DNA of 64,000 nucleotides from Octopus vulgaris. Its lineage: Eukaryota. Positions 12,721-47,828 of this stretch are shown piece after piece. Both the position numbers and the translations under genes were made by a program. The notes below the pieces were generated by a model. That model searched no databases and was not told the DNA's origin. It worked only from the letters and a program-made list of their open reading frames with translations. Location: the NCBI GenBank assembly GCA_951406725.2, contig OX597823.1, positions 105,710,001 through 105,774,000 on the forward strand, in the 5' to 3' direction. Every line of letters starts with the position of its first letter. The first letter of the stretch is position 1.

Positions 12721-13699
12721 ACACATGCACACAAACATACACACAAACACAATATAAACTATATACACATCGATACAGACACAAATACATATATATATAT
12801 GCTTACCGTCCCCTCTCGTCTCTTTGCCCTCCATCTTTCATCGAACCTATTCTCCATTTCTTGCTTGGCCTCAACCACCAACTCTTTAATTTTTTTACAC
12901 ACACACCAAGAACCACAAACTCCACTTCCTTTTCAACCCTCCCCCTCTTCCTGTCCAGACCGTTCCACCCCTGCACGCGCTCCACGACTCCACTCTAGTC
13001 CTGCCCCTTACACTTCCACCTTCTCTCTCCCTGACACCGTGCGCCCTCTCTCAGACACTGAAATCATTGTATTAATTGCTTTCGACTTTTGCTTCAAGTG
13101 GTCCCAACTTTGTTTCCTTTGTTTTTTTCTGGTTTCATAAGCAGGAGGCATTACCGTTGATTTTAATGTCTCTTTTAGTTTATTCTTTAATCTAAATTCT
13201 AAAGCCTTTTTCTATAATATATTGCTGCTGAATTGAATGACTGATATGCTAAAATCTAAGTAATAATTTGACCCTTTTTGAAGTTAAAACTCATTTATAA
13301 AATAGAATTCTTATATGCGAAATATATTTCATCAAATTACATTATGAACAGAACATGAAATATAGACATGCCTCTAGATTAGGCCTTGCTCTCAAGCGTT
13401 GTTGTTGTTGCTGTTGTCAGGTATTTCACCTCACCGGGTTACATAATCCATTTTGTCTTTTGTAATTAAAGACTCTAGTGTAGCACGAATTAGGGCCTAT
13501 TTCTAACAAATCAAGTGGCCATGAAGACGGTTCTGCAGTACCTTTACCATCCATCAAGAAATCCCATGCACATACAATTATATAGTTTGATCAAACATCG
13601 GTGGTTGTGGGCACACCTTCGGTTACCAGACAAGCTAGGAAGCAGTTATATAACGTTGTAGATATTTAATATATATATATAGACATATTCTAGCAAAAA

Positions 13700-13737
13700 C
13701 TGTCCGAAGAACGGGAGCGTGAAACTCAGAGTAACAG
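13700..13737 (+). ncRNA. Type I minimal hammerhead ribozyme candidate (U4C core variant)
   Basis: CTGT / CCGAAGA / ACG-GGAG-CGT / GAAA / CTC-A-GAG / TA / ACAG. Stems I, II and III all pair, and the cleavage triplet is GUA. Lies in a ~90-bp island between (TA)n tracts. Confidence 0.7.
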
Positions 13738-13770
13738 GTTTTGTTGAATTTTCTGCTGCTTTTAAATAAA

Positions 13771-13817
<47 letters not shown>

Positions 13818-40791: not shown

Positions 40792-40871
<80 letters not shown>

Positions 40872-40958
40872 TATGAGAGACAAAACCACTATTTTGCAAA
40901 ACAAACAAGGAAAGACTTAATCAATACATAAAATTTTAATAAATAGTCAAAAAAACCG

Positions 40959-41001
40959 CCACTACAATTGTTTCTTGTCTTGATCGACAATCTTCAGGTG
41001 G
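40959..41001 (-). ncRNA. Type I minimal hammerhead ribozyme (Penelope-like element type)
   Basis: Minus strand: CCAC / CTGAAGA / TTGTC-GATCAA-GACAA / GAAA / CAATTG / TA / GTGG. Full CUGANGA...GAAA...UH core, 4-bp stem I, 5-bp stem II and palindromic stem III. Confidence 0.85.
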
Positions 41002-41428
41002 ACTTCCAATAAGTCAGTTTCAAATTATGAAGTGAAATTAAATTCTTAGCCGTTAAAAAAATCAAACCAGAATTACGTTACCATAGAAATATAACTTATG
41101 TAAAAAAAGAATACGCGCCATGGAAAGTAAACGTCATTATATATATGAATGTGTGTATGTACGTATGTGCATATGTAAATGATAGTTTAATAATTAAATT
41201 GATAATTATGGAAGTTTTAAGCCAGATTTTTATTGCTAATTTGAAAAAACTACCCCTCATTTTATACGATTTCGATTTGCATGTTGACGAACGGAACCAG
41301 TCAGCCGCGTAAATCGGGAAACAACAGTATGTGATAAAACGACTGGACGGTGACGGTTGGTATGGAACACTTTTGACCACAGGAGGACTCAATTAAAGTC
41401 CACCTAATATAGAATATTGTATACAAAC

Positions 41429-46122: not shown

Positions 46123-47146
46123 AATAGAGGGTGTTGATTAGTTGAATAGCTGTGTGTCTTGCATGTCTGCATGTCTGCATGCCTGGCTGCCTGACTGGAC
46201 GGCTGGAGGGACGAATTTTTAGATGGACAATGGGATAAAGAGGATGTGGGGCGAGAAAATAAGGGGGAAAAAGAGATTGATGGGGGAGAAAAATGTTTGC
46301 ATATATGGACGTATGTACGTACGTGTGTATGTATATATGTGTGTATGTATGGGTGGATGTATCTATGGATGTATAGATGGGTGGATAGATGGATGGATGG
46401 AGGGAGGGAGGGAATATGGATTGGGGAGGAGGCTGTATGGATGGAATGAAAAGTTAACTGGACAAATAGGTCTAAGAATGGACAGTGGTAGAGATATAAC
46501 TGGAAACGGAGAGTGGAGGGGAAGAAATGAATGCCAAAAAAATAAATGAAATATAAAATAAAAAAGTAGAGAAATAAAGAAAGGTGAGGAAGAGTGAGAG
46601 GGAATAAGAGACAGATAGATGGAGATAAATGTGTGCAAGGGAGATGGTTGGACAGACGGATGGACACACGGGGTGGGGTGGTGGTGGTGATGTTAAATGA
46701 GGGAATCGGTTTTTGGGGATACATGTGTAGAAAAGGATGCAGGCATAGATGTATCTGTCAGTTTGAGAAAAAGATTAATACAATAGGGGTGGGGATGGAG
46801 CAGCGGAGATGAGCAGGAGTGGGAGTGAAGGGTTCGTGTGGAGGAAGAGGAGGAAGGAATATGGTAAAAACCGGAAGATGGAAGATGGGCGAATTAAATC
46901 TAGGTTGAAAAGAGAGATTAAAATCTGAAAGTAGAGGTGAGTAAATCTGGACATAAAGAGAAAAAGTGATAGATAGACAAACAGACAGACAGAAACATGG
47001 ATAGGATGAGATAGGTATACGCACATACACACACATACACACACGTGTGTGTATGTGTGTGTTAATGTGTGAGTATACATATATATATATATATATTTGT
47101 ATGCGTGTAAATATATGTACAATATATATAGATAGATATATATATG

Positions 47147-47188
<42 letters not shown>

Positions 47189-47198
47189 ATAGAAGGAG

Positions 47199-47245
47199 CT
47201 TCTACAGGACTAGAACTGTTTCATTCAGAAGAAATCATCAGGAAA
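47199..47245 (-). ncRNA. Type I hammerhead ribozyme candidate in a ~60-bp island within (TA)n
   Basis: Minus strand: TTTC / CTGATGA / TTTC-TTCT-GAAT / GAAA / CAG-TTCTAGTC-CTG / TA / GAAG. Canonical core and GUA triplet; stem II closes with a U.U mismatch. Confidence 0.75.
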
Positions 47246-47268
47246 TATATATATATATATATATATAT

Positions 47269-47526
47269 GGAGGCGCAATGACCCAGTGGTTAGGGCAGCG
47301 GACTCCCAGTCATAGGTTCGCGGTTTCGATTCTCAGGCTGGGCGTCGTTAGTGTTTATTGAGGCGAAAACACCTAAAGCTCTACGAGGCTCCGGCAGTGG
47401 GTGGTGGCGATCCCTGCTGTACTCTTACGCCACAACTTTCTCTCACTCTTTCTTCTGTTGGTCTGCTCACTTAGCCAACGGGGTGGGCGTCATTTGAAGG
47501 CTAAAACAATGCGGTGATCACGGTGA
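47269..47526 (+). mobile_element. tRNA-derived SINE, family G
   Basis: GGAGGCGCAATGACCCAGTGGTTAGGGCAGCGG (A box) ... GGTTTCGATTC (B box), then a unique body; flanked by (TA)n. Confidence 0.75.
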
Positions 47527-47828
47527 TATATATATATATATATATATATATGTGACCATGCACATGTATATATATATATATGCATATGCATGAATATATG
47601 AATATATATACATATATACATATATACATACATGTGCACAGTCATATATATATATAACCGTGCACATGCATGTATATATGTATATGCATAAATATATATA
47701 CATATGTACATACATGTGCACGGTCATATATATACATATATATATATGACTGTGTACATCTATGTATATATGTATACGCATGAATATGTAAGTATATATA
47801 TTTATACATAAATACATACATACATACA

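What the first reader, a model, noticed from the sequence alone, without database searches (positions are those of the whole stretch)
47185..47246. A ~60-bp island in (TA)n that is essentially just a hammerhead ribozyme
Seen: the only non-microsatellite sequence between two (TA)n tracts folds on the minus strand into a type I hammerhead (CUGAUGA, GAAA, stem III CAG/CTG, GUA, stem I TTTC/GAAG). The island's edge coincides with the 5' strand of stem I. Its sequence is unrelated to the hammerheads at 40959 and 13700, so it is a separate family. Inference: either an extremely truncated PLE insertion or a ribozyme-only mobile unit targeting (TA)n.
Basis: partly seen in the sequence, partly recalled or inferred. 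Interest (0 to 1): 0.78.

Follow-up and report, generated by a model that had tools for sequence, protein, structure and literature searches.

The report
Ribozyme stub of a Penelope retroelement
The island is a 62-base stub of an abundant Penelope-like jumping gene, not an element of its own; such stubs share two preferred ends, likely because copying starts just behind the ribozyme and runs off the capped start of the element's RNA.

Summary
The hammerhead motif is real (47183-47244, minus strand). It is a piece of the terminal repeat (pLTR) of a Hydra-clade Penelope-like element: at least 1,532 exact core matches in the genome, and intact 713-aa RT + endonuclease copies exist. It is not a stand-alone unit. 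It equals the tail-less arm of this family's usual head-to-head insertion, here without its partner; 21 such whole-motif solos were found among 47 (TA)n-joined loci, and their sequence variants mirror those of long copies. The edge at stem I is not chance: 48 of 100 tail-anchored copies start at -6..0, none at the cleavage site, and 74 of 74 adjoining inverted partners lack the tail. An extra G precedes the boundary in 25 of 44 informative junctions, as expected if a cap was copied. In a second hammerhead family of this window, short copies are spliced and start 36 nt before the core, away from stem I. Best reading: cDNA from an internal start site that ran off the capped RNA 5' end (inferred; no read-end data). 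The window copy lacks half of stem I and is probably inactive. This scan noted the same 5' clustering before in fish- and shark-type genomes.

The parts
47183..47244 (-). Tail-less pLTR arm of a Hydra-clade Penelope-like element, positions -3 to +58 (0 = first C of CUGAUGA, 47241)
   Evidence: 100% identical over 62 nt to 16 other places among 40 scored of 549 candidates; one difference from ORF-linked pLTR L104
47242..47244 (-). Remnant (3 of 6 nt) of the 5' strand of stem I; family 5' boundary is 3 nt further out (-6)
47235..47241 (-). Hammerhead core CUGAUGA
   Evidence: sequence
47223..47234 (-). Stem II: U.U closure, 3 pairs, 4-nt loop
   Evidence: U.U kept in all subfamilies aligned and in 14 of 26 Hydra-clade rows of File S2 of PMC8557442
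47204..47222 (-). GAAA core and stem III with a self-complementary loop (predicted dimer-forming)
   Evidence: cofold -12.8 versus -1.4 kcal/mol as monomer
47197..47203 (-). Predicted cleavage site (after A 47203) and 3' strand of stem I
   Evidence: sequence; no copy of 100 starts at this site
47183..47196 (-). AT-rich trailer ending at the inner, tail-less 3' end of the family (+53 to +65)
   Evidence: 71 of 74 partner arms end at +53..+65
47074..47182 (.). (TA)n-rich target tract on the element's 3' side
47245..47268 (.). (TA)n target tract on the element's 5' side; no target duplication can be told

Best explanation
The island is a 62-base piece of the terminal repeat of a Hydra-clade Penelope-like element sitting in (TA)n, likely a dead insertion made when reverse transcription began at an internal site just behind the hammerhead and ran off the capped 5' end of the element's RNA. 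Shown: parent structure (pLTR, 713-aa ORF, long low-complexity UTR, pLTR plus tail of about 75 nt); two 3' ends (about +60 and about +135); a 5' boundary at -6; head-to-head pairs of one tailed and one tail-less arm; excess G before the boundary. Inferred: transcription starts at the A of AGCUUC; the endonuclease cuts both strands of (TA)n; each DNA end primes cDNA at one of two fixed sites on the uncleaved sense RNA; both cDNAs stop at the cap and are joined, often at the AGCT palindrome. When one arm fails or is lost a solo remains (24 tailed, 23 tail-less of 47). The window copy is a tail-less solo 3 nt short of the boundary. It lacks the tail and ORF start from which copying begins and half of stem I, so it is predicted neither to move nor to cleave well.
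For: Parent and clade motifs. Copy number. 5' ends of 100 tail-anchored copies: 48 at -6..0, 33 at +1..+79, 19 upstream, 0 at +39. Solos: only 1 of 47 clearly passes -7 although the pattern could see to -13. G at -7 in 25 of 44, p 7e-6 against 25%; extra G marks cap copying in L1 (PMC11702581, passage). Partners tail-less in 74 of 74; 7 tailed arms stop at +54..+67, where the inner start lies. Two internal RT starts, both strands extended, uncleaved RNA used: PMC11167929. Sister family: 14 of 30 copies spliced, 13 of these start within 23 nt of the exon 1 end, both that reach 23 nt carry an extra G.
Against: No transcript 5' end was observed: all runs offered were contigs. The window copy itself starts at -3 with no extra G. 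14 of the 27 calls at -6 are palindromic joints where AGCT forces the call, and one is a diverged subfamily. The AG at -6/-5 also looks like a splice acceptor in most subfamilies. One long copy (L091) has tail sequence on both arms. The 44 junctions come from a non-random set of loci after dropping 120 continuing and 52 arm-remnant cases of 216. The sister family was not linked to an ORF here.
Confidence: 0.7

Rival explanations
1. Same parent, but the boundary is set by structure: the cDNA folds back or stalls at stem I or the AGCT palindrome (self-priming), and the solo is what is left of such a hairpin after deletion.
For: Many joints are palindromic (14 of 27 at -6); 8 of 47 solos keep a few bases of an inverted arm; self-priming was proposed for PLE palindromes (PMC3846280, passages); the 13700 family also inverts at a palindrome near stem I.
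Against: Solos without any partner stop at the same base, 6 of them as (TA)n-G-AGCTTC. In several pairs the tailed arm is very short while the tail-less arm reaches -3 to -6 (L102, L272, L291), which fold-back of a tailed cDNA does not give without a further deletion. In the 40959 family the boundary is about 36 nt before the core and its stem I is 4 nt.
Confidence: 0.2
2. The island is a self-propagating ribozyme-only mini-element (retrozyme-like) moved in trans through cleaved or circular RNA.
For: 21 whole-motif solos in (TA)n with similar ends; monomeric retrozymes derived from pLTRs are described (10.64898/2026.07.22.740005, part 1).
Against: Ends are not at the cleavage site (0 of 100); no tandem monomers of the island in the loci read; junction bases differ; solos carry the same five variants as long copies in similar proportions (22/10/1/1/1 versus 34/11/2/2/3); the exact junction is at 2 places and the other has a tail.
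Confidence: 0.04
3. The boundary marks a splice acceptor (AG at -6/-5) and short copies come from spliced RNA with a first exon that I did not recognise.
For: AG and a pyrimidine-rich stretch are kept in most subfamilies; in Drosophila Penelope the intron ends at helix I (PMC4209133); the sister family has such an intron.
Against: No recurring upstream exon among 261 distinct arms; one subfamily has TG in place of AG.
Confidence: 0.06

Closest known systems
Hydra clade of C-terminal EN+ Penelope-like elements (Craig et al. 2021, PMC8557442)
   Same: RWK-like, DKT, CxCX5C, CxxC and CxH motifs, no CCHH, (TA)n targets, pLTR hammerhead, often with U.U at the base of stem II
   Different: Unit is about 4.8-5.2 kb (long low-complexity UTR) against under 3 kb described; tail about 75 nt against 30-40; protein and hammerhead differ by eye from Hydra-1_Obim in the supplement
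Solo and opposite-strand PLE hammerheads attributed to truncated PLEs (Cervera and de la Pena 2014, PMC4209133)
   Same: Most motifs occur as single or inverted short copies
   Different: The parts I read report no fixed 5' boundary, extra G or strict tailed/tail-less pairing
Poseidon PAc internal RT initiation (Frangieh et al. 2024, PMC11167929)
   Same: Two internal RT starts that define the tail, both target strands extended, AT-rich targets, uncleaved RNA used
   Different: Other clade; the parts I read do not treat run-off at the RNA 5' end
Non-LTR retrozymes (Cervera and de la Pena 2020, PMC7229834)
   Same: Type I hammerhead, PLE connection, U.U closure in an axolotl motif that cleaves
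   Different: Tandem monomers of 150-450 nt cut at the cleavage site; the island is 62 nt, single, and bounded elsewhere

Membership tests
Hydra-clade PLE | Single ORF with RT and C-terminal GIY-YIG endonuclease | tested here: met
   713-aa ORF; RVT_1 only weak, E 0.0096 on a 379-aa piece and absent for the full protein; C-terminal part resembles clusters with GIY-YIG in 31% of members, score 0.95; matches the Hydra alignment by eye
Hydra-clade PLE | RWK and DKT motifs | tested here: met
   RIRWR (R in place of K) and SDKTK in L133, L137; L138 has LDKTK
Hydra-clade PLE | CxCX5C linker, CxxC and CxH, no CCHH | tested here: met
   CNCPDKTTC, CDLC, CMH
Hydra-clade PLE | Hammerhead in pLTR; insertion into (TA)n | tested here: met
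Hydra-clade PLE | Length generally under 3 kb | tested here: not met
   pLTR-to-pLTR spacing 4,784 bp in L138 and about 5.2 kb in tandem copies; a described tendency, not a diagnostic
Hydra-clade PLE | Placement in an RT tree | not tested
   reference sequences were cut in the supplement and were not brought into a script
PLE insertion unit | Partial tandems, adjoining inverted 5'-truncated copy, optional tail | tested here: met
   74 of 100 tailed copies have an inverted partner; tandems
Type I hammerhead ribozyme | Core CUGANGA, GAAA, NUH and three helices | tested here: met
   family: 6/3/4 pairs; window copy has stem I cut to 3 pairs plus G.U
Type I hammerhead ribozyme | Self-cleavage | not testable with these tools
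   predicted share of the hammerhead fold 2e-7 for the island against 4e-4 to 5e-3 for four parent-type copies
Non-LTR retrozyme | Head-to-tail monomers bounded by the cleavage site | tested here: not met
   0 of 100 5' ends at +39; no tandem island monomers seen
Non-LTR retrozyme | Circular RNA | not testable with these tools
   only contigs were available

The most novel reading that the evidence does not exclude
Penelope-like elements insert by priming two cDNAs, one from each target strand, at two fixed internal sites of a capped (and, where there is an intron, spliced) sense RNA. On promoter-started RNA both run off the cap after 60-145 nt like retroviral strong-stop DNA and litter the genome with ribozyme-sized stubs that map the transcription start; long, intron-keeping copies come from read-through RNA. 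This would explain head-to-head repeats, the one-sided tail and intron retention without an antisense template or ribozyme cleavage.
Probability: 0.5. Interest if true: 0.72.

Novelty: new member of a known kind. Interest (0 to 1): 0.42.

Why it matters
The island itself is an ordinary fossil. The population it belongs to records steps of PLE transposition that are still open in the papers read: why inverted repeats are head-to-head, why the tail is on one side, what the hammerhead does, and why introns are kept. It gives base-exact predictions (start at -6, RT starts near +60 and +135, no use of cleaved RNA) and a young family with intact ORFs in which to test them.

Tried and rejected
Rfam: no hammerhead match for 47170-47530; the 150 rows shown for the whole window were microsatellite mimics. 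Pfam does not recognise the endonuclease; the VtrA_C hits are below cut-off and ignored. I first took the RT for Naiad from recalled motifs; rejected because the endonuclease is C-terminal. Sequencing runs: no RNA holder listed, all contigs; laying four guessed-RNA runs showed loose ends at the -6 base in all four and no joints, but these can be transcribed genomic copies, so they are not used as evidence. Fold-back on stem I or priming from the cleaved 3' product would give a joint in which the reverse of the 3' strand runs straight into the core; it was not among the upstream 10-mers listed for 261 arms (top 70 shown). No ORF-linked copy with the island's exact loop II variant was found among the loci held. 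Literature searches for a described 5' boundary, cap signature, twin priming or spliced copies in PLEs and for this family found none; the library lacks most subscription papers.

Full report
Observation. The minus strand of 47183-47244 holds a type I hammerhead motif between (TA)n tracts. Numbering below sets the first C of CUGAUGA (47241) to 0, so the island spans -3 to +58 and the predicted cut lies between +38 and +39. A descriptor written with knowledge of the motif hit three places in the window and none in 50 shuffles; the three motifs are unrelated in sequence. Rfam does not recognise it, and the hammerhead is not the predicted best fold.

It is part of a larger element. The island is identical to 16 other places among the 40 candidates scored of 549, and a 35-mer of its core has 1,532 exact matches in the 2.8-Gb genome, 0 for the control. 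Longer copies run on in both directions. Between distant arms lie ORF pieces, and locus L138 holds a whole unit: pLTR, a 713-aa ORF, a long low-complexity UTR and a second pLTR 4,784 bp later. The island differs at one base from the pLTR of L104, which reads into the ORF. [quoted passage not shown] Pfam support is weak and no tree was built. The U.U closure of stem II is common in the clade, 14 of 26 Hydra rows of File S2, and an axolotl motif with it cleaves weakly alone and better as a dimer (PMC7229834, passages). The stem III loop here is self-complementary.

Where copies end. I took the first 100 listed of 1,998 exact matches to the tail, all on contig C1, an anchor independent of the ribozyme. 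Their 5' ends: 19 upstream of -6, 27 at -6, 48 at -6..0, 33 at +1..+79, none at +39 and one at +37. Fourteen of the 27 are palindromic joints in which AGCT forces the call, and one belongs to a diverged subfamily. 74 of the 100 have an adjoining inverted partner; none of the 74 carries the tail, 71 end at +53..+65 and three alignments stop earlier. Long copies whose partner lies over 260 nt away were not scored there; among ten two-armed long loci, eight pair a tailed with a tail-less arm, L091 has tail sequence on both and L100 is interrupted. The island is thus exactly a tail-less arm without partner.

Solos. A pattern for (TA)n within 10 nt of the motif gave 89 matches at 47 loci. Their starts are -6 (19), -5 (13), -3 (8), -7 (4, a T shared with the tract), -4 (2) and -14 (1); the pattern could not see starts 3' of -3. 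24 have the tail and 23 do not; 21 of these, the window copy included, hold the whole motif. The window's exact 5' junction occurs at two places. Solos carry the same five variants as long copies in similar proportions. This argues for repeated independent production from parents, not for a self-copying mini-element.

Why -6. Of 261 distinct arms held, 216 have AG at -6/-5; 120 continue upstream and 52 abut remnants of an inverted arm and were dropped. Of the 44 left, 25 have G at -7, where the element has T, C or A (p 7e-6 against 25%; loci not randomly drawn). Six solos read (TA)n, G, AGCTTC. An extra G is the mark of cap copying in full-length L1 insertions (PMC11702581, passage), and the Penelope transcript starts inside the pLTR (PMC2377424, passages). 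The family of the window's 40959 hammerhead gives an independent test. Of its first 30 listed copies of 746, 11 keep an intron of about 1.1 kb (spanned in 4 loci), 14 lack it, 4 are cut inside exon 2 and 1 is unclear; both GT donors implied by the joints exist in the genome. 13 of the 14 spliced copies start within 23 nt of the exon 1 end, and both that reach 23 nt have an extra G before an initiator-like TCACTT (the label is recalled). That boundary is about 36 nt before the core, far from its 4-pair stem I. One spliced copy and the window's own copy extend further upstream, so read-through RNA can be spliced too. I did not link this family to an ORF.

Mechanism. PMC11167929 (parts 1-2 of 4) shows for another PLE that the protein cuts and extends both strands of AT-rich DNA, starts at two internal sites that define the tail, and uses uncleaved RNA. 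Applied here (inference): each end of the cut (TA)n primes at one site, near +60 or +135; on RNA that begins at -6 both cDNAs end at the cap after about 65 and 140 nt and are joined head-to-head. Seven tailed arms stop at +54..+67, as expected if the outer copy sometimes halts at the inner primer. A solo is left when one arm fails or is lost. The window copy stops 3 nt short and has no extra G, so the cap signature comes from its siblings. With half of stem I gone its predicted share of hammerhead fold is 2e-7 against 4e-4 to 5e-3 for four parent-type copies, and it lacks the sequence 3' of +58 that a template would need. I put the PLE origin at about 0.95 and the cap run-off step at about 0.7. 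No RNA end could be observed and the locus could not be checked in other runs.

Known and new. Solo and opposite-strand PLE hammerheads were already ascribed to truncated PLEs (PMC4209133, parts 1-2 of 4); inverted copies, tails and (TA)n targets are described (PMC8557442: passages, sections 10 and 11, supplement parts 2-3 of 59 and searches). PMC3846280 (passages) proposed self-priming on an antisense template to explain palindromes and intron retention; spliced short copies with a sense-strand start speak against that for these arms. The retrozyme preprint was read in part 1 of 5; its supplements are closed. My searches found no description of the boundary, the extra G or this family. Earlier notes of this scan report the same clustering at the hammerhead edge in fish- and shark-type genomes; I had reached my reading before seeing them and did not test them on their DNA.

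Verdict. A real motif and an ordinary kind of object: a stub of a new Hydra-clade family. Interest 0.42 rests on the population pattern, which makes the open PLE mechanism testable.

Noticed in passing
window 40866-41140, minus strand; loci L359-L388: The 40959 hammerhead family (746 exact 24-mer matches) occurs both with and without a GT-AG intron of about 1.1 kb just upstream of the ribozyme; 14 of 30 copies are spliced, by two donors 4 nt apart. The window copy is spliced. Spliced genomic copies of a probable PLE bear on the intron-retention puzzle; the family was not linked to an ORF.
   Followed up: partly
window about 13684-13772, plus strand; loci L329-L358: The 13700 hammerhead family (6,039 exact 25-mer matches) has a CCGA core variant, the same tailed and tail-less 3' ends and short inverted pairs; 10 of 30 copies start at -14..-17, 12 at -3..-10, 5 extend 40 nt or more upstream, 3 start inside.
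   Followed up: partly
table; L133, L134, L141-L148: Many young copies share an ORF that ends after about 506 codons, before the endonuclease, yet sit in tandem units: a probable endonuclease-less sublineage that kept spreading. Other related families with open frames of about 727 and 980 aa (46-52% identity) are also present.
   Followed up: no
L101:682-993: A short copy starting at -5 with extra G reads through the tail into the ORF start and is followed by a second short tail-less copy: a probable template jump after run-off.
   Followed up: partly
window 47269 to about 47518, plus strand: High-copy repeat with a tRNA-like head next to the island, probably a SINE (label recalled; very high contig depth).
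   Followed up: no
L138:5711-7953, L096:920-2900: The element's own UTR is about 2 kb of TA/TG-rich low-complexity sequence, so active copies add microsatellite-like DNA, the kind of sequence they target.
   Followed up: no
L260-L262 (G000:C1:57.29-57.31 Mb): Three tailed copies at about 8.1-kb spacing, two with the same junction, probably a later tandem duplication; counted as three in the 100.
   Followed up: no
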